A stretch of 18,880 nucleotides of DNA from a virus (taxonomy: Duplodnaviria > Heunggongvirae > Uroviricota > Caudoviricetes): positions 1 to 18,880 of the IMG/VR virus record IMGVR_UViG_2529292904_000021; one strand, written 5' to 3'. The position numbers and the translations under genes were made by a program. How positions within the stretch are numbered: the first letter of the stretch is position 1; each line of letters begins with the position of its first letter. A model generated the notes under the pieces. It worked only from the letters and a program-made list of their open reading frames with translations, searched no databases and had not been told where the DNA came from. Shown piece by piece: positions 1,137 to 18,843 of this stretch.

Positions 1137-1200
1137 CGCCCGCGTCTCCCTGCGCGGGCTTTTTTTGTCCATAAGAAAGCCCCTCCGGAGAGGGGCTGGA
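1137..1200. terminator. Pair of GC-rich hairpins with flanking T/A runs (possible bidirectional terminator) between the tRNA cluster and the esterase gene
   Basis: cccgcgtctccctgcgcggg followed by TTTTTTT on the + strand; gcccctctccggaggggc followed by TTTCTT on the minus strand. Confidence 0.4.
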
Positions 1201-1433
1201 GAGTGGCGCTATGTGCCATTGCATGGTGCCGGGTGCCTCCCGGTGAATTCAGTACCAGCACCTGAATCCGCGATTATCCCATATACCTACTCGCTGATTG
1301 CCCCTCCGCACAGGGGGATTCACCATGCCAGTTTCTTTTAACAAACTCCCCGCAAACCAGACAACAGTCAACCGCCTGAATTGTGAGACATTTAAAAAAA
1401 AGGCCCGCAAAAGCGAGCCAGGGAAAATAAGTG

Positions 1434-1510
1434 TGGCGCGTTGTACTGGATTCGAACCAGTGACCGATTGCTTAGAAGGCAATTGCTCTGTCCGGCTGAG
1501 CTAACAACGC
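1434..1510 (-). tRNA. tRNA-Arg (anticodon UCU), phage argN/argO-type
   Basis: Reverse complement GCGTTGTTAGCTCAGCCGGACAGAGCAATTGCCTTCTAAGCAATCGGTCACTGGTTCGAATCCAGTACAACGCGCCA folds as a cloverleaf: 7-bp acceptor, GCTC/GAGC D-stem, anticodon loop CTTCTAA, T-loop TTCGAAT, encoded CCA. Confidence 0.8.
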
Positions 1511-1523
1511 AGGATACAGATAA

Positions 1524-1600
1524 TGGACCGCCTTCGGGGACCCGAACTCCGCGCAACCAGCTTCGAAAGCTGGCGCTCTTTCCTGATGAGCTAATGGCGG
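1524..1600 (-). tRNA. tRNA-Arg (anticodon UCG), phage-type; T-loop is non-canonical, so a pseudo-tRNA is possible
   Basis: Reverse complement CCGCCATTAGCTCATCAGGAAAGAGCGCCAGCTTTCGAAGCTGGTTGCGCGGAGTTCGGGTCCCCGAAGGCGGTCCA. D-arm and anticodon arm (loop TTTCGAA) are clean; the T-arm has one mismatch and loop TTCGGGT. Confidence 0.55.
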
Positions 1601-1607
1601 TATGTGA

Positions 1608-1683
1608 TGGTGGCCCTTGCTGGATTTGAACCAGCGACCTGGCGATTATGAGTCGCTCGCTCTCACCACTGAGCTAAAGGGCC
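1608..1683 (-). tRNA. tRNA-Ile2 (anticodon CAU, ileX/ileZ-like; would be scored Met by anticodon alone)
   Basis: Reverse complement GGCCCTTTAGCTCAGTGGTGAGAGCGAGCGACTCATAATCGCCAGGTCGCTGGTTCAAATCCAGCAAGGGCCACCA closely resembles E. coli ileX. Together with the two Arg tRNAs it forms the ileZ-argN-argO-type triplet found downstream of Q in lambdoid/Stx phages. Confidence 0.8.
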
Positions 1684-1711: not shown

Positions 1712-2425
1712 TCAATAATCAAGCCCTTGCCTGGATACATATCTGTCTGGCGGGAAGCCATAATAGCGGTGAAATACAGAAATAAAGTAGGACCAGCTTG
1801 AATAACCGCATTTTTCTGCTACAGCCTGTCCATATCCATGCCGGGAACATAACATATTGACAGCAACACGCATCCGCTCTTCCAGCAACAAGCGACTGAA
1901 CATGTGCCCTTCATTTTTCAGTTTTATCTTTAACAAACTCTCACTCATATGCAGGCGTAACGCAATCGCACCAAGCGTCCAGCTTGCTGATATATCTGTC
2001 TGAATTATCGCCCTGACTTTGGCACTTATACTGGATAAACATCCACTTAAAAATAATAATATCCGTTCATCTGATTCAAACAGCGACAGGCATACCATCA
2101 TAAGAAACATATCCGTGGTATCTCCGGAAAATCTCTGGCTGGTAATTAAAGCCTCAACCAACGCAGGGTTGTTGGGTTCCAGTGACAGATAAAGCGGAAC
2201 GTCAGTCAGATGAGTTCTTGTCAGCTTATGCTGAATTTCCAGATATTGACTTACTATGGAATGGTTTATATCGAAAATTTTAACTTTGCCATAATGCATA
2301 AGGAAAAGCGCCCTGATGCATTTGGTGGCCAGAACGACTGAGCCGGGCTTAAGTGACAACGTATCCTTTTCAAGAAAAATATTAATTGGGGAGCAAACCA
2401 TGATAACTGAACAGACAACAACCAT
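1712..2425 (-). CDS. AraC/XylS-family transcriptional regulator (AppY/GadX-like small prophage regulator)
   Basis: C-terminal AraC-type double HTH (LLKIKLKNEGHMFSRLLLEERMRVAVNMLC...AVAEKCGYSSWSYFISVFHRYYGFPP). The N-terminal region resembles the AppY/YdeO class. AT-rich gene; N-terminal start codon uncertain. Confidence 0.75.
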   Translation of the reverse strand: MVVVCSVIMVCSPINIFLEKDTLSLKPGSVVLATKCIRALFLMHYGKVKIFDINHSIVSQYLEIQHKLTRTHLTDVPLYLSLEPNNPALVEALITSQRFSGDTTDMFLMMVCLSLFESDERILLFLSGCLSSISAKVRAIIQTDISASWTLGAIALRLHMSESLLKIKLKNEGHMFSRLLLEERMRVAVNMLCSRHGYGQAVAEKCGYSSWSYFISVFHRYYGFPPDRYVSRQGLDY

Positions 2426-3045: not shown

Positions 3046-3870
3046 TCAATTATGTTTTAAAAATGGATAGGTAAAGAATAACAAGTGACACAGATTCAAA
3101 CCAAAATGGAAAAGGGTGGCAACCCACAAACGCCCACTCCACATCCATGACAATCCATACACAACACCAGATAACGTGGCAAATAATACAAGTAAAGCAC
3201 CACCTGAATAGTGAAAAAAACCAAACAACAAAGCCGCCACAATTAATGCAACCAATGGAGACGTTACTTCTGATAGCCGTGATTGAATATACCCTCTAAA
3301 TAATGATTCCTCTGCCAGAGACACAAAAAACAAATTAGCCAATATAAACTCTGGCAACCACTCAGGAAAATGAATCTCTGGCTTTAATCCACCAAAAAAA
3401 ACAGCCAAAAACAGGATAAGAGGAACAGAGAGCGACAGAGCCCCCCACTTCCACAAAGACACTTCTGATTTTACTTCTTTTTTAAACAAAGAAGATGTAC
3501 ACAGGACTAACAAAAATGGCACCAGCGCTTTATCAAAATTAAAATACATTGTATAGGGAGTGCTTTGAGGGCCAACAGTAACAGAATTTAGCACTACAGG
3601 ATTGTGAAACCCTGGCCATAGATGGAAAGATAATGCTATGGCTGATAAAACCATGCCAACTTCATATATAGATTTAGCCCAGGCGTTATATTTCCAGTTG
3701 AACTTCAAAATAATAAAAAAAACGATTGTAGCAACAAAAAATAACACCGACCAATCAATAATATCATTAAGCACAGCCAGGACAACAGACACCGTCAACA
3801 ATGAAAAAGCCACTACCTTATGCCAACTGAGAGTTGACAGTGACAGTACTAACACAATCCACATAAGCAC
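3046..3870 (-). CDS. CPBP-family intramembrane metalloprotease (CAAX protease / Abi family, PF02517-like)
   Basis: Polytopic hydrophobic protein carrying the three CPBP signature motifs in order: EExxxR (AEESLFRGY), FxxxH (FGFFHYSGG), HxxxN (FHFGLNL). Strong RBS AAAGGAG 5 nt before the ATG. Markedly AT-rich. Confidence 0.8.
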   Translation of the reverse strand: MLMWIVLVLSLSTLSWHKVVAFSLLTVSVVLAVLNDIIDWSVLFFVATIVFFIILKFNWKYNAWAKSIYEVGMVLSAIALSFHLWPGFHNPVVLNSVTVGPQSTPYTMYFNFDKALVPFLLVLCTSSLFKKEVKSEVSLWKWGALSLSVPLILFLAVFFGGLKPEIHFPEWLPEFILANLFFVSLAEESLFRGYIQSRLSEVTSPLVALIVAALLFGFFHYSGGALLVLFATLSGVVYGLSWMWSGRLWVATLFHFGLNLCHLLFFTYPFLKHN

Positions 3871-6550: not shown

Positions 6551-6572
6551 AAAAAACCCGCCGAAGCGGGTA
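6551..6572 (-). terminator. Rho-independent terminator (copy 1 of a duplicated hairpin)
   Basis: + strand aaaaaaCCCGCcgaaGCGGGt, which is hairpin plus U-run on the minus strand, directly after the stop of the HTH-peptidase gene. Confidence 0.65.
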
Positions 6573-6575
6573 TAC

Positions 6576-7682
6576 TCAAACAATCTGGAAAATATTTCTT
6601 GGATTTGTAATAGGTCTGTTGATGGAGAACAACTCACGAATTAAATCTTGGCTCAAGCCAGTTTTCATAAGAATTCTTAGCCAGGTTGCATCATCCAGCA
6701 TTTCAATCGCCTCGGCCAGCATGCCGGGTTCTTCAGGGCGCAAAAGTTCATCACCAGGTTCAACTCTCGTATACCCTCTGGAATTAAGATGCATATAGCC
6801 AGTTCTTGCCTGTTCCTGGGTCAATAAGCCTAATGCGCTGGCTCGATAAATACACATTTTAAGGCTGATTTTCCATCTAAGTTTAAATTCAACCAGAGCA
6901 TTCCAGTCGAATTGCTTACCTCGTATTCGTGGAAATTCTTTAATGAAAGATAACCTGGGAACTAATAAGGCGCTCGAAAAGTGATCGGCTTGTGATTCCG
7001 TAAGTTTATCACCTGTCGTTATGCCCTCATGCATTACTAAATGCCCTAATTCATGACCTAAATCAGAGCGAAATCTACATATGCTTTTTTTAACATTGTT
7101 CCTGATGATAACAGGCCTGTTATTGTGAACAGTAAAAGCATCAACACGATCATCGACTCCCGTAACATGCGCAACGATTACCCCTAAACTCTCCGCCAAT
7201 TTAACCATTGATGATATAGGGCCAAGACCTAAATTCCAGGCACGGCGACAATCTTCTGCCACTCGCTCAATATCATTCGGAGTAAGTAATTCAGCCCCTG
7301 GGTGCTCCGGTATGTTAACGTCAGGAAATTCGATTTCACCTTCAACAGCAGAAATTATAATATTAAGAATCTCAGCCCTGGCCAATACACTATTAGTCAG
7401 CGTTTGAGTCCTGGACTTCTTACTCCGAAAATGGCAGACATCACTTTCCAGAGCGTATTTTCGTTCAGTAAAAAGAAAACTGGACTTAATCATAAGCGCT
7501 GAAGATATTAACTCAAGACATTGCTCCGATGGCCTGCACCCCTTCTCCAGTTTGCTAACAAATTGCTTTGTCTTGCCAATTTTTTCGGCTAACTCTTCAC
7601 AAGAAAGCCCAACAGCCATTCTCGCTAGTTTGAGCTTATCACCCCGATACTCAGTGAAGTTATTCACCTGATGTTCCATCAC
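6576..7682 (-). CDS. Fused XRE-family HTH regulator / ImmA-IrrE (M78, COG2856) zinc metallopeptidase
   Basis: N-terminal HTH (LKLARMAVGLSCEELAEKIGKTKQFVSKLEKG); HEXXH zinc motif (DLGHELGHLVMHEG) inside an ImmA/IrrE-like region. Start overlaps the upstream gene by 23 bp. Confidence 0.8.
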   Translation of the reverse strand: MMEHQVNNFTEYRGDKLKLARMAVGLSCEELAEKIGKTKQFVSKLEKGCRPSEQCLELISSALMIKSSFLFTERKYALESDVCHFRSKKSRTQTLTNSVLARAEILNIIISAVEGEIEFPDVNIPEHPGAELLTPNDIERVAEDCRRAWNLGLGPISSMVKLAESLGVIVAHVTGVDDRVDAFTVHNNRPVIIRNNVKKSICRFRSDLGHELGHLVMHEGITTGDKLTESQADHFSSALLVPRLSFIKEFPRIRGKQFDWNALVEFKLRWKISLKMCIYRASALGLLTQEQARTGYMHLNSRGYTRVEPGDELLRPEEPGMLAEAIEMLDDATWLRILMKTGLSQDLIRELFSINRPITNPRNIFQIV

Positions 7683-8340
7683 TGCTCACATCCAAATCTT
7701 TATCCTTCGTACGCCGACGAAGAGGCACCTTATTAATCTCCGCTTCGTCAGGGAGTGTGTTATAATCAAGAGGCATAAGCGGCATCGATGCTGTAGATTG
7801 ATGAGAAACTATACTAATCTGAGCACCATAAGTATTAAATCCAACAAGAGCTACCTCCCAACGAGGCAGTGTGGACTCTAATTCACCATCGCCCTCTTCG
7901 GATAAAAAAGGCTCAGCTATGACTCGCCATGTAATATCTTGCTCAGCCTCAACATCACCAAACAATGAGAGCTGCTCATACTCTACTTTATTTCGACGCA
8001 GACGATGTTTCTTTTTGGGGTTATTAATGCAATCTTTGGTAAATTGTAGCGGAACTTTATTTAAAGCAACTACATAGTCCACCCCCTTGGAAATCATCTC
8101 AAGGCCAGGAATTGCATCTTCATTTTGAATAAGATGATTTCTGACCCAATCATAAGCCCTTACACCTTCAGACCAGTTGCTGTCTAATGCGTGCTTATGA
8201 TAGTACAGCTGCTCAAGTACGTTAGCGATCTCCGCCAACAAGTGGCGAACATAGTTTTCAGCAAGATAAGGTTGAAATTCCCAACAAGGAGCTAACTGAT
8301 TTTCATTCATTTCAAGTTTCGCTTTTTTTAGAATTCGCAA
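7660..8340 (-). CDS. Hypothetical 226-aa protein, upstream partner of the HTH-ImmA gene
   Basis: Track ORF, apparently with a TTG start at 8340; alternative ATG near 8310 (MNENQLAPCWEF...). No recognisable domain. Overlaps and is co-oriented with the peptidase gene. Confidence 0.55.
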   Translation of the reverse strand: MRILKKAKLEMNENQLAPCWEFQPYLAENYVRHLLAEIANVLEQLYYHKHALDSNWSEGVRAYDWVRNHLIQNEDAIPGLEMISKGVDYVVALNKVPLQFTKDCINNPKKKHRLRRNKVEYEQLSLFGDVEAEQDITWRVIAEPFLSEEGDGELESTLPRWEVALVGFNTYGAQISIVSHQSTASMPLMPLDYNTLPDEAEINKVPLRRRTKDKDLDVSSDGTSGE

Positions 8341-8349
8341 ACCACATAT

Positions 8350-8385
8350 TTTCGCATTTTTCTATTTTTGTCAACCAGGCTAATG
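8350..8385 (-). promoter_or_regulatory. Candidate sigma70 promoter for the two-gene cassette
   Basis: Perfect -35 TTGACA on the minus strand (+ strand tgtcaa ~8367-8372), followed ~17 nt later by an A/T-rich -10-like AAATAT/TATGTG, sited between the hokD terminator and the cassette start. Confidence 0.4.
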
Positions 8386-8408
8386 CAAAAACCCGCCGAA
8401 GCGGGTTA
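8386..8408 (-). terminator. Rho-independent terminator of hokD (copy 2 of the duplicated hairpin)
   Basis: + strand caaaaaCCCGCcgaaGCGGGt, identical core to 6551-6572. Preceded on the minus strand by a second GC hairpin (ggcgggagattactcccccgcc, ~8440-8462) that resembles the hok fold-back element. Confidence 0.65.
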
Positions 8409-8475: not shown

Positions 8476-8631
8476 TTACTCCTCAGGTTCGTAAGCTGTG
8501 AAGACAGCGACCTCCGTCTGGCCGGTTCGGATTCGTACCTCGCAGAGGTCTTTCCTCGTTACCAGTGCCGTCACTATGACGGTTAAACAGATGACGATCA
8601 GGGCGATTAACATCGCCTTTTGCTGCTTCAT
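8476..8631 (-). CDS. hokD: Hok/Gef-family type I toxin HokD (RelF)
   Basis: Not in the ORF track (51 aa). My translation is MKQQKAMLIALIVICLTVIVTALVTRKDLCEVRIRTGQTEVAVFTAYEPEE, which matches E. coli HokD as I recall it. SD AAGGAG sits 9 nt upstream. Confidence 0.85.
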   Translation of the reverse strand: MKQQKAMLIALIVICLTVIVTALVTRKDLCEVRIRTGQTEVAVFTAYEPEE

Positions 8632-8842
8632 AGCCTGCTTCTCCTTGACCTTTTGGTCCGTAAGAGGCTAATCTCTATGTGTCGCATAGATATGGCCTCA
8701 GATTAATGTTAAGCGTCTTGCAGGACGCGTAATGTTAACTGGGGCTTTTCTCTATCTGCCTTTTGGTGTTCATGCCTGAGGCAGATAGCCTCAAGCACCC
8801 GCAGCAATTCTACTTAACTCCCGTCACCTCGCCAATATAAAA

Positions 8843-9002: not shown

Positions 9003-10034
9003 CTACCAATCAATAAAATCAGTGATGTTATCCAACCTAATTACAGTAACTTCCCGTCTCAACTGGTTTTTCCAATATATCTCACGAGCGTTTTGTTCAC
9101 CAGCACCGCTCCACTCAATTACTCTTAAAGGCTTAGAGGTTAGGTAAGGTCGAATAAGCAGGTTAAGGTGAATATCGAGACCAGAGTAACCAAACAATAT
9201 TATTTCTTCTGATTCAAATAATGCAAACTGCAAATAATCCCAGTACGTAGAAAGAACATTAGATGCTGCTATAACTGACGGTTTTCTTTTTATATGAGTT
9301 AACACTATATGCTCACTAGGTTCATCTATGTCAAGAGTAAGTTGTGAGCGTGAAAGTTTTAAAACATTTTCATGCTGATTAATAAATAGTGGTGAACCAT
9401 GCAAGTGCAAATAATAACCAAACCTACGATTGTATTTCCGTTCGAGCGCTGCAGAGGAAAATCCGTGGCTTAGCATCCCATCAACTAAAACCCCATCATA
9501 CCCGTTGAATATATCATTATCTATGAATGAATTGTATAATAATTTGTCATAGTTTAATGTCGCGATATGTGAGTGTGTGTTCTTTACAAACTCCACAAGC
9601 GCATTTTCGAATCTTTGTGGCAAACCTTTATCGTAATTATGCAACCTGGTTGCAACTTTGTGAATATAAGTGGCGGTAATTTTGGGGAAGTTTAGTCCAT
9701 CTTCAGTAAGCCAATGCACGTTCCCCTCTCCAATTTGAGCAAGAGCTTTACAATATGTGACAGCCTGGTGAAGGGTATCCAACTCATGTTCTCCTTCTGG
9801 TGGACCTTGCCGCTGAAGACAACGCTCGATAAGTTGCTTGTGGATATCTTTTAAAAAATTGGGGCGATGCCAAATTTCTTCCAACGCTCTGTCTAAGGAG
9901 AAGTGAGCAGGATCTAAAGCCATACCGAGACCGTTGCCGAATATTATTAATTTTCTTGCCATATAGGGGGACTCATATTGGAATAACGCTGGATAGCGTA
10001 GCGCGATACGCTTAAGTTTAGGATTAATAGACAT
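9003..10034 (-). CDS. SIR2-like (sirtuin-fold, SIR2_2-type) protein; candidate NAD+-consuming antiphage effector
   Basis: Sirtuin-type motif order: glycine-rich LIIFGNGLGMA near the N-terminus, TLNYD (TTNYD-like), HLHGS (catalytic HG), and FGYSGLD near the C-terminus. AT-rich gene with an AT-rich upstream region. Confidence 0.55.
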   Translation of the reverse strand: MSINPKLKRIALRYPALFQYESPYMARKLIIFGNGLGMALDPAHFSLDRALEEIWHRPNFLKDIHKQLIERCLQRQGPPEGEHELDTLHQAVTYCKALAQIGEGNVHWLTEDGLNFPKITATYIHKVATRLHNYDKGLPQRFENALVEFVKNTHSHIATLNYDKLLYNSFIDNDIFNGYDGVLVDGMLSHGFSSAALERKYNRRFGYYLHLHGSPLFINQHENVLKLSRSQLTLDIDEPSEHIVLTHIKRKPSVIAASNVLSTYWDYLQFALFESEEIILFGYSGLDIHLNLLIRPYLTSKPLRVIEWSGAGEQNAREIYWKNQLRREVTVIRLDNITDFIDW

Positions 10035-14303: not shown

Positions 14304-14361
14304 TTTCTGGTGACATTTGGCGGTATCAGTTTTACTCCGTGACTGCTCTGCCGCCCTTTTT
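14304..14361 (+). ncRNA. dicF: DicF small RNA (ftsZ-targeting sRNA processed from the dicB operon transcript)
   Basis: TTTCTGGTGACATTTGGCGGTATCAGTTTTACTCCGTGACTGCTCTGCCGCCCTTTTT matches E. coli DicF as I recall it, including the terminator hairpin GGCGG...CCGCC plus U-run. Sits immediately upstream of dicB. Confidence 0.85.
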
Positions 14362-18701: not shown

Positions 18702-18800
18702 TTCCAAGTGTGATTTTTATCACTGACTTGATGGCGTGTAAGTGATTGAATTTTGGCGGAGAGAGGGGGATTTGAACCCCCGGTGGAGTTGCCCCCACTC
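18702..18800. other. Probable prophage/chromosome junction (att site overlapping the 3' part of tRNA-Ser)
   Basis: Integrase stop at 18701 with the tRNA 3' end at ~18754. Core sequence not delimited because the other prophage end lies outside the window. Confidence 0.4.
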
Positions 18801-18843
18801 CGGTTTTCGAGACCGGTCCGTTCAGCCGCTCCGGCATCTCTCC
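18754..18843 (-). tRNA. serU: tRNA-Ser (anticodon CGA), serU-like; likely prophage attachment target
   Basis: Reverse complement GGAGAGATGCCGGAGCGGCTGAACGGACCGGTCTCGAAAACCGGAGTGGGGGCAACTCCACCGGGGGTTCAAATCCCCCTCTCTCCGCCA: 90 nt with long variable arm and anticodon loop CTCGAAA. The 3' end faces the integrase gene. Confidence 0.85.

What the first reader, a model, noticed from the sequence alone, without database searches (positions are those of the whole stretch)
6551..8408. Terminator-bracketed two-gene cassette: unknown 226-aa protein plus fused HTH/ImmA-IrrE metallopeptidase
Two co-oriented genes overlap by 23 bp (7660..8340 and 6576..7682). The first has no recognisable domain; the second fuses an XRE HTH to an ImmA/IrrE-type HEXXH peptidase. 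The pair has its own promoter-like element (perfect TTGACA -35) and is flanked on both sides by the same ~20-nt terminator hairpin (caaaaaCCCGCCGAAGCGGGT at 6551-6572 and 8386-8408). In the Qin-like backbone, rem and hokD are adjacent, so this looks like a discrete insertion next to a type I toxin. HTH-ImmA fusions are known signal-responsive regulators of toxin, abortive-infection and mobile-element modules, which makes the unknown partner a candidate effector. I could not assign it to any named system from sequence alone.
Basis: partly seen in the sequence, partly recalled or inferred. Interest (0 to 1): 0.8.

Follow-up and report, generated by a model that had tools for sequence, protein, structure and literature searches.

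The report
Prophage RosmerTA toxin–antitoxin defence cassette
The two genes are a catalogued type of phage-defence toxin–antitoxin pair (RosmerTA) carried as a self-contained insert in an E. coli prophage, so the finding is real but of a known kind, although how this toxin works is unknown.

Summary
Two overlapping minus-strand genes lie between two exact copies of a 20-nt terminator hairpin. E. coli K-12 Qin has a single hairpin at the same rem|hokD junction.

The pair is not unassignable. PADLOC models identify the small protein as RmrT (PDLC03929, E 6.5e-25, full length) and the HTH–M78 fusion as RmrA (PDLC03943, E 6e-105). That makes it a RosmerTA system (Millman et al. 2022).

- **Conservation:** the gene order RmrT then RmrA is kept in lambdoid and Mu-like prophages, in islands and in chromosomes. 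Both genes are under purifying selection, and the HExxH…E zinc site is intact.
- **Relation to the tested system:** this subtype differs from the one verified experimentally. RmrA is 29% identical and RmrT shows no detectable similarity. I found no experiment on this subtype.
- **Hairpin:** it is a generic C(UUCG)G terminator found in at least 120 viral contigs. Paired copies at this site bracket alternative cassettes, including a Fic/Doc pair.

Verdict: an already known kind. It is a tidy example of a moron (a self-contained gene insert in a phage) at a swap hotspot. Interest is low to moderate.

The parts
6552..6571 (-). Left copy of the 20-nt hairpin. It is the intrinsic terminator downstream of rmrA: an ACCCGC-UUCG-GCGGGU stem-loop followed by a U-run.
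   Evidence: Exact repeat. Called terminator-like. Folds at -10.9 kcal/mol, z -2.66.
6576..7679 (-). rmrA: a 367-aa fusion of an Xre-type HTH (about residues 13-70) and an M78 ImmA/IrrE zinc peptidase (about residues 177-282), plus a C-terminal region of about 85 aa. It is the predicted antitoxin and regulator.
   Evidence: Pfam HTH_3 and Peptidase_M78. PADLOC RmrA PDLC03943, E 6.2e-105. 29% identical to the verified E. coli OLC-716 RmrA, E 2e-35. RefSeq WP_000401168.1. dN/dS 0.03.
7041..7055 (-). Codons for the HELGH zinc-binding motif (RmrA residues 209-213). The third ligand, E228, lies in TESQADHFSSALLVP.
   Evidence: Motif found. H209, E210, H213 and E228 are invariant across 7 partner RmrAs and the verified RmrA.
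7660..8310 (-). rmrT: a 216-aa acidic (pI 4.9) soluble protein, the predicted toxin/effector. It overlaps rmrA by 20 nt.
8346..8374 (-). Promoter-like element: -35 TTGACA (8374-8369), a 17-nt spacer, and a -10-like AAATAT (8351-8346).
   Evidence: Read from the sequence. It is not called by the consensus scan. In 7 of 8 homologous loci TTGACA sits at -58 to -67 from the rmrT start, even where RmrT is only about 20% identical; in the eighth (L012) three copies lie further upstream.
8317..8361 (-). Two copies of a repeat 33 nt apart (AAAAA(A/T)GCGAAA, extendable to TGGTT(G/T)...GCGAAA). They span the promoter and 5' leader and are a candidate operator for the RmrA HTH.
   Evidence: One search finds the repeat in the window, and a 28-nt version at 79% identity in L003. 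Function is inferred only.
8387..8406 (-). Right copy of the 20-nt hairpin. It is the hokD terminator and the only copy present at the empty site in K-12 Qin.

Best explanation
The cassette is a RosmerTA-type toxin–antitoxin / abortive-infection module. It is carried as a moron: it has its own promoter and terminator and sits in the nin region of a serU-integrated Qin-like prophage.

**Proposed mechanism.**
- One promoter transcribes rmrT and then rmrA, which are translationally coupled by a 20-nt overlap.
- RmrT is a cytoplasmic toxin whose target is unknown.
- RmrA keeps RmrT harmless in the lysogen. It probably does so by specific protein–protein contact and/or proteolysis through its intact zinc site, and by HTH-mediated repression of the operon.
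- By analogy with other Rosmer systems, neutralisation probably also needs host ClpXP.
- Infection by another phage, or another insult, disturbs RmrA. RmrT is released and stops the cell, which protects the lysogen population and also stabilises the prophage.

**Shown here:** family membership of both proteins, conserved pairing and order, intact catalytic residues, purifying selection, and insertion as a unit.

**Inferred:** the toxicity of RmrT, the polarity of neutralisation, the trigger, ClpXP dependence, autoregulation and anti-phage activity.
For: **Family assignment.** PADLOC identifies RmrT (PDLC03929, E 6.5e-25, covering 17-219 of 226 aa) and RmrA (PDLC03943, E 6.2e-105). All 53 wider RmrT relatives hit only PDLC03929.

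**Conserved pairing.** An RmrA gene follows RmrT, overlapping it or within 7 nt, in every context examined: Proteus lambdoid prophages, a Mu-like phage, two metagenomic chromosomal loci and an integrase/resolvase island. Every partner best matches PDLC03943 by more than 100 bits.

**Functional genes.** RmrA is homologous to the verified RmrA, and the HExxH…E site is invariant. dN/dS is well below 1 for both genes.

**Mobile unit.** The cassette is present in 237 of 5426 E. coli genomes, always with both genes. K-12 provides the empty site.

**Literature.**
- RosmerTA was defined as a Zn-peptidase antitoxin plus a toxin of unknown function, and an rmrA deletion could not be transformed (10.1101/2022.05.11.491447).
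- Toxin-first HTH-peptidase TA pairs have been validated in Vibrio (PMC4671572), phage Kita (PMC10440598) and S. pneumoniae RipAB (10.1101/2025.09.02.673660).
- ClpP or ClpX becomes essential when such modules are present (10.1101/2020.05.25.114553; 10.64898/2025.12.09.693261).
Against: - I found no experiment on this subtype.
- Its RmrT shares no detectable sequence similarity with the verified RmrT, so toxicity and defence are extrapolated.
- In the related three-gene system PD-lambda-2, the Xre-peptidase itself was the toxic component (PMC9519451). The polarity is therefore not guaranteed.
- The promoter has only a weak -10.
Confidence: 0.72

Rival explanations
1. The module is a pure addiction or stress module. 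The pair is a toxin–antitoxin system that stabilises the prophage or responds to host stress such as loss of ClpXP or replication stress, and has no role in excluding other phages.
For: The same site carries a classical Fic/Doc pair in other prophages, and hok/sok lies immediately adjacent. The Rosmer-type RipAB system of S. pneumoniae is described in terms of competence and stress rather than defence. The Kita RosmerTA protected against only 2 BASEL phages.
Against: The family was discovered through enrichment in defence islands, and two members gave phage protection. A location in prophage moron slots is typical of superinfection-exclusion genes. Addiction and defence are not mutually exclusive.
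Confidence: 0.15
2. The polarity is reversed. The HTH–peptidase protein is the harmful component and the 216-aa protein is its inhibitor or sensor, as reported for PD-lambda-2B and PD-lambda-2A.
For: Vassallo et al. found that an Xre-peptidase fusion was toxic alone and was rescued by the upstream gene (PMC9519451). NetFlax notes that toxin/antitoxin assignment is uncertain in the ImmA/Rosmer zone.
Against: Neither protein hits a PD-lambda-2 model in PADLOC. In four studied two-gene systems with the same architecture the upstream gene is the toxin: Vmi480/470, RosmerTA OLC-716, Kita and RipAB. rmrA is essential in Tn-seq of Rosmer-carrying Pectobacteriaceae.
Confidence: 0.08
3. The pair is a prophage regulatory switch of the ImmR/ImmA or DdrO/IrrE type. 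The HTH–peptidase would control prophage induction or lytic gene expression, and the small protein would be a co-regulator rather than an effector.
For: The M78 and HTH domains are those of ImmA/ImmR, IrrE/DdrO and CapP/CapH. An invariant H-F-R motif in the linker could be a self-cleavage site.
Against: The prophage has its own DicA/Cro-type immunity region elsewhere in the window. The cassette is dispensable: it is absent from most related prophages. The same pair also occurs in non-phage chromosomal contexts, and it is insulated by terminators on both sides.
Confidence: 0.05

Closest known systems
RosmerTA (RmrT/RmrA) of E. coli OLC-716, verified by Millman et al. 2022
   Same: Two genes with the toxin first. 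The antitoxin is an Xre-HTH plus M78 zinc-peptidase fusion of about 370 aa. The two RmrAs are homologous (29% identity over 301 residues, E 2e-35), and both carry HExxH…E.
   Different: The RmrT proteins are unrelated in sequence: PDLC03929 here and PDLC03935 there, with BLASTP and hhalign finding nothing. The RmrA subtype also differs (PDLC03943 versus PDLC03949). This subtype has not been tested.
Vmi480/Vmi470 (Vibrio mimicus) and the E. coli E101 prophage module E101_02645/02644
   Same: A toxin of about 200 aa with no domain lies upstream of an HTH–Zn-peptidase antitoxin of about 362 aa. The modules sit on mobile elements, and the E101 module makes clpP essential.
   Different: I could not retrieve these sequences, so homology of their toxins to this RmrT was not tested.
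RipAB (Spr1630/Spr1629) of S. pneumoniae
   Same: It is assigned to the Rosmer family. The antitoxin is XRE plus ImmA-like. RmrA here matches NCBIfam antitox_spr1629 at E 1.5e-45.
   Different: That score (156 bits) is far below the model cut-off of 335, so this RmrA is not an equivalog. The RipA toxin targets DnaN, and nothing links this RmrT to that target.
ImmR/ImmA (ICEBs1), DdrO/IrrE and CapH/CapP
   Same: They use the same two domain types: an M78 metallopeptidase acting on an HTH repressor in response to a signal. PADLOC capP hits the peptidase region at E 1.6e-14, and the CapP structure 7t5t matches the RmrA profile.
   Different: In those systems the HTH and the peptidase are separate proteins that regulate other genes. 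Here they are fused and paired with a dedicated effector, and no CBASS or ICE genes are adjacent.
PD-lambda-2 (Vassallo et al. 2022)
   Same: It contains an Xre-peptidase fusion downstream of a small toxin-like gene, and it is a prophage-type defence system.
   Different: It has three components with a HigB-like first gene, and there the peptidase fusion was the toxic part. Neither protein here hits a PD-lambda-2 model in PADLOC.
Lambdoid phage morons (independent promoter-gene-terminator inserts; from my own knowledge of Juhala/Hendrix et al.)
   Same: The cassette is a self-contained transcription unit inserted between backbone genes. Its GC content is lower (41.7%) than the left flank (50.3%), and it is present or absent among related prophages.
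   Different: Here the insert is bracketed by an exact 20-nt duplicate of the resident terminator, and the same slot holds alternative TA cassettes.

Membership tests
RosmerTA | RmrA is a single protein with an N-terminal Xre-type HTH and an M78 (ImmA/IrrE) zinc-peptidase domain. | tested here: met
   Pfam HTH_3 (17-63) and Peptidase_M78 (177-282). PADLOC RmrA PDLC03943, E 6.2e-105, covering 12-351.
RosmerTA | The zinc-binding and catalytic motif HExxH plus a downstream Glu is intact. | tested here: met
   HELGH at 209-213. H209, E210, H213 and E228 are invariant, including in the verified RmrA.
RosmerTA | An adjacent, co-oriented gene belongs to one of the catalogued RmrT families. | tested here: met
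   PADLOC RmrT PDLC03929, E 6.5e-25, nearly full length. The genes overlap by 20 nt.
RosmerTA | The pairing is conserved across unrelated genomic contexts, showing it is a functional module and not chance adjacency. | tested here: met
   All 6 independent contexts have RmrT followed by an HTH-M78 gene. All partners are subtype PDLC03943.
RosmerTA | RmrT is toxic and RmrA neutralises it. | not testable with these tools
   This needs expression experiments. Support is indirect only: an rmrA deletion could not be transformed in the verified system, and rmrA is essential in Pectobacteriaceae.
RosmerTA | The system protects against phage infection. | not testable with these tools
   Protection has been shown only for the OLC-716 and Kita systems, whose toxins are unrelated to this one.
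RosmerTA | RmrT shares the common predicted fold of Rosmer toxins reported by Ernits et al. 2023. | not tested
The model built here has no PDB or BFVD relative.
CapH/CapP (CBASS regulators) | Separate HTH and M78 proteins sit next to a CBASS operon. | tested here: not met
   The domains are fused here. The capP and capH hits are partial (E 1.6e-14 and 1.5e-4), and no CBASS genes are in the window.
PD-lambda-2 | Three genes: a HigB-like gene, an Xre-peptidase and a P4-antitoxin-like gene. | tested here: not met
   Neither protein hits a PD-lambda-2 model. There is no third gene between the terminators.
PD-(D/E)xK nuclease superfamily (for RmrT) | The characteristic alpha-beta-beta-beta-alpha-beta core with conserved D…(D/E)xK catalytic residues. 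| tested here: inconclusive
Phage moron | Own promoter and terminator, inserted between backbone genes and absent from related phages. | tested here: met
   A perfect -35 that is conserved in homologues. Terminators on both sides. An empty site in K-12 Qin. Promoter activity itself was not tested.

The most novel reading that the evidence does not exclude
Two readings remain open.

1. RmrT of subtype PDLC03929 may be a toxin with a previously unseen fold and an unknown cytoplasmic target. Its activity would be gated by RmrA proteolysis together with host ClpXP.
2. The C(UUCG)G terminator between rem and hokD may act as a recombination docking site. Different toxin–antitoxin or defence cassettes (RosmerTA, Fic/Doc) would be swapped in and out there, each leaving a duplicated hairpin.
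Probability: 0.2. Interest if true: 0.55.

Novelty: already known. Interest (0 to 1): 0.28.

Why it matters
As a catalogue entry it adds little, because DefenseFinder or PADLOC would flag this locus as RosmerTA. Its value is as a clean natural example.

- The cassette occurs in about 4% of complete E. coli genomes and in the O55:H7 lineage. That makes an untested Rosmer subtype easy to study in its native host.
- No RmrT of this family has a known target. The role of the RmrA peptidase and the ClpXP link in Rosmer systems are still unresolved.
- The three states of one site (empty, RosmerTA, Fic/Doc) offer a simple system for asking how morons are exchanged at terminators.

Tried and rejected
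**Searches that found nothing for RmrT**
- Pfam and NCBIfam.
- PDB sequence profiles, which gave only spurious hits at E>0.3.
- The annotated phage collection, by DNA and by tblastn. The cassette is seen only in prophages.

**Structure**
- Two AlphaFold2 models were built (pLDDT 69.5, then 79.2 with a deeper alignment).
- I therefore rejected calling RmrT a nuclease. D78 is not conserved in the wide family and K92 is replaced in some close relatives.
- Foldseek against BFVD found nothing at E<=1e-3. The afdb50 library was unavailable.

**Ideas considered and dropped**
- A membrane-depolarising toxin like Kita RmrT: rejected, because there is no hydrophobic segment (maximum KD19 0.84).
- Identity with the verified RmrT: rejected.

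**Things I could not do**
- Link this RmrT to Vmi480 or E101_02645. The accessions are not searchable and those sequences were not retrievable.
- Scan species genomes with the wide alignment, which failed. The narrow alignment found only 6 species.
- Find a paper for PDB 9vzy, an HTH-peptidase structure.

**The hairpin as a special signature:** rejected, because it is a generic terminator in many unrelated contexts.
Full report
**Where the window comes from.** The window is 100% identical to a serU-integrated, Qin-like lambdoid prophage of E. coli O55:H7 RM12579. tRNA-Ser(CGA) lies at 18754-18843. In the minus-strand reading direction the region reads: hok/sok (hokD 8476-8631; sok RNA 8629-8800), the two genes of the finding, a rem-like gene, DUF968, RusA and Q.

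**The observation.**
- The mechanical ORFs are 7660..8340 and 6576..7682.
- The real starts are almost certainly ATG 8310 (216 aa) and ATG 7679 (367 aa). RefSeq uses these, and every homologue starts at the equivalent Met. The overlap is therefore 20 nt.
- The 20-mer AAAAACCCGCCGAAGCGGGT occurs exactly twice, at 6552-6571 and 8387-8406, with none expected by chance.
- On the coding strand each copy is an ACCCGC-UUCG-GCGGGU stem-loop followed by a U-run. Both are called terminator-like, with folding energies of -10.9 and -15.8 kcal/mol.
- A perfect TTGACA sits 64 nt upstream of the rmrT ATG. The -10 is poor (AAATAT), and the consensus scan does not call the promoter.

**It is a discrete insertion.**
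- K-12 Qin has rem and hokD adjacent with a single hairpin. The alignment places the insert between the two copies, at about 6572-8386.
- The flanks occur in 4709 of 5426 complete E. coli genomes. The cassette occurs in 237, always with both genes, and in about 233 of those at this same junction.
- An 80%-identical version sits in a different lambdoid nin region without hokD. It keeps the TTGACA promoter and its own similar terminator, AAAAAACCCGCATATAGCGGGTTT.
- A 94% version has a one-base loop variant of the left hairpin and a different left neighbour.
- The cassette has lower GC (41.7%) than the left flank (50.3%).
- Together these features describe a classical moron.

**What the genes are.**
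- The large protein has HTH_3 plus Peptidase_M78.
- PADLOC assigns it to RmrA (PDLC03943, E 6.2e-105) and the small protein to RmrT (PDLC03929, E 6.5e-25, nearly full length).
- These are the two components of RosmerTA. Millman et al. described it as a Zn-peptidase antitoxin with a toxin of unknown function, and could not transform an rmrA deletion.
- Compared with their verified E. coli OLC-716 system (sequences from Table S2), RmrA is 29% identical (E 2e-35). The RmrT proteins show no similarity by BLASTP or profile comparison and fall in different PADLOC families.
- The locus is therefore a member of a catalogued but untested Rosmer subtype. No paper mentions either RefSeq accession.

**The pair is a conserved module.**
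- The RmrT family is small. There are 68 representatives at E<=1e-3 among 1.84 billion proteins, all about 200 aa. All 53 aligned members hit only PDLC03929 and no Pfam family.
- Close relatives are confined to a few Enterobacterales: E. albertii, Proteus, Providencia, Xenorhabdus, Serratia and Yersinia.
- In every context examined an HTH–M78 gene of 367-377 aa follows RmrT, overlapping it or within 7 nt. The contexts were Proteus lambdoid prophages, a Mu-like phage (between mor and the lysis genes), two metagenomic chromosomal loci (one next to a HigB-like toxin gene), and an integrase/resolvase island.
- All these partners best match RmrA subtype PDLC03943 by more than 100 bits. This argues for a specific cognate interaction.
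- H209, E210, H213 and E228 are invariant. So is an H-F-R motif (F84, R85) in the linker between the HTH and the peptidase.
- Both genes are under purifying selection: dN/dS is 0.06-0.24 for rmrT and 0.03 for rmrA. RmrT changes two to three times faster at the protein level.

**The toxin.**
- RmrT is acidic (pI 4.9) and hydrophilic and has no membrane segment. This distinguishes it from the membrane-depolarising RmrT of phage Kita.
- With 59 sequences AlphaFold2 gives a moderately confident alpha/beta core (pLDDT 79, pTM 0.71) and a low-confidence C-terminal tail. The tail carries a conserved basic patch, with a residue at the R200 position that is always basic.
- BFVD and PDB sequence searches gave nothing.
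- The target is therefore unknown, and I do not call RmrT a nuclease.

**Most likely mechanism.** By homology and architecture, rmrT-rmrA is a toxin-first TA operon.
- RmrA neutralises RmrT. Its HTH probably represses the strong promoter.
- A perfect TTGACA lies at -58 to -67 in 7 of 8 loci, even where RmrT is about 20% identical. A unit repeated 33 nt apart spans the promoter and leader.
- Several Rosmer-type modules make ClpP or ClpX essential: E. coli E101, RipAB and Pectobacteriaceae. ClpXP is therefore likely to take part in keeping the toxin in check.
- Phage infection would upset this balance and release RmrT.
- All of these steps are inferred, not shown. PD-lambda-2, where the Xre-peptidase itself was toxic, is a caution about polarity.

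**The hairpin.**
- The 20-mer is not special in itself. It occurs in at least 120 IMG/VR contigs, and about 101 of them have unrelated flanks. One is a high-GC phage where two copies flank tail genes. It carries the very stable C(UUCG)G tetraloop, so it recurs as a good terminator.
- What is informative is the state of the rem|hokD site. Among 19 contigs with this context, about 11 are empty and 4 carry rmrTA. Two carry an insert of about 935 nt; the one examined (L123) holds a Fic/Doc pair bracketed by the same hairpin and co-oriented with hokD, and the other (L114) was not examined.
- That Fic/Doc cassette is in 125 of 5426 E. coli genomes.
- The site is thus a hotspot where alternative TA cassettes are exchanged. 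Exchange could occur by recombination at the terminator or by precise deletion between the repeats. The direction cannot be told from these data.

**Verdict.** However, the system has a name and a catalogued subtype, so it is an already known kind. The residual interest lies in three things: an untested Rosmer subtype with a toxin that has no recognisable fold relative, its convenient presence in E. coli, and the terminator-bracketed swap site.

Noticed in passing
L123:689-1548 (IMG/VR contig); also L114; the equivalent window site is 6552-8406: At the same rem|hokD junction, another prophage carries a different two-gene cassette bracketed by the same 20-nt hairpin. It encodes a 59-aa protein and a 164-aa Fic/Doc protein (Pfam Fic, E 1.7e-11) and is co-oriented with hokD. 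This cassette is in 125 of 5426 complete E. coli genomes. The site therefore behaves as a swap hotspot for TA cassettes.
   Followed up: partly
window 6552-6571 and 8387-8406; loci L013-L132: The hairpin 20-mer is a C(UUCG)G-tetraloop terminator that recurs exactly in at least 120 viral contigs. Most have unrelated flanks, including a high-GC phage where two copies flank tail genes (L105).
   Followed up: yes
window 8308-8374 (-); upstream regions of rmrT in L003, L004, L005, L008, L009, L011 and L012: A perfect TTGACA lies 58-67 nt before the rmrT start in 7 of 8 loci, even between homologues about 20% identical. Several loci have 2-3 direct TTGACAA-like copies. In the window and in L003, a unit repeated 33 nt apart (TGGTT(G/T)…GCGAAA) covers the promoter and leader. 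This could be the RmrA HTH operator.
   Followed up: partly
window 9003-9962 (-): A SIR2-family gene lies just beyond hok/sok. Its PADLOC hits are only weak (Aga_SIR2 E 3e-6, PDC-S21 E 1e-5). K-12 Qin has relBE at the corresponding position, so this may be a second variable defence/TA slot.
   Followed up: partly
window 6576-7679 (-), RmrA residues 82-88: An invariant H-F-R motif (F84, R85) sits in the linker between the HTH and the peptidase domain in all RmrAs compared, including the verified one. It is a candidate self-cleavage or autoinhibitory segment.
   Followed up: no
window 7660-8310 versus 6576-7679: RmrT diverges two to three times faster than RmrA at the protein level between cassette variants (dN 0.030 versus 0.011, and 0.084 versus 0.047). 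Both remain under purifying selection.
   Followed up: partly
PDB 9vzy_A (393 aa, 'HTH cro/C1-type domain-containing protein'): This recently deposited structure of an HTH–peptidase fusion is the best PDB match to the RmrA profile (E 1.4e-8, peptidase region), ahead of CapP 7t5t. I found no associated paper.
   Followed up: partly
window 1167-1357 (-), 14305-14356 (+), 1434-1683 (-): Rfam finds the sRNA STnc100 and DicF, and ARAGORN finds three phage-borne tRNA genes. ARAGORN calls them Arg-TCT, Arg-TCG and Met-CAT; RefSeq annotates the CAT one as tRNA-Ile. They lie in the late and early regions of the prophage.
   Followed up: no
window 3046-3864 (-) and 1712-2425 (-): A CPBP-family intramembrane protease gene and a nearby HTH-domain gene lie downstream of Q. 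Neither has a PADLOC hit, and their function in the prophage is unclear.
   Followed up: no
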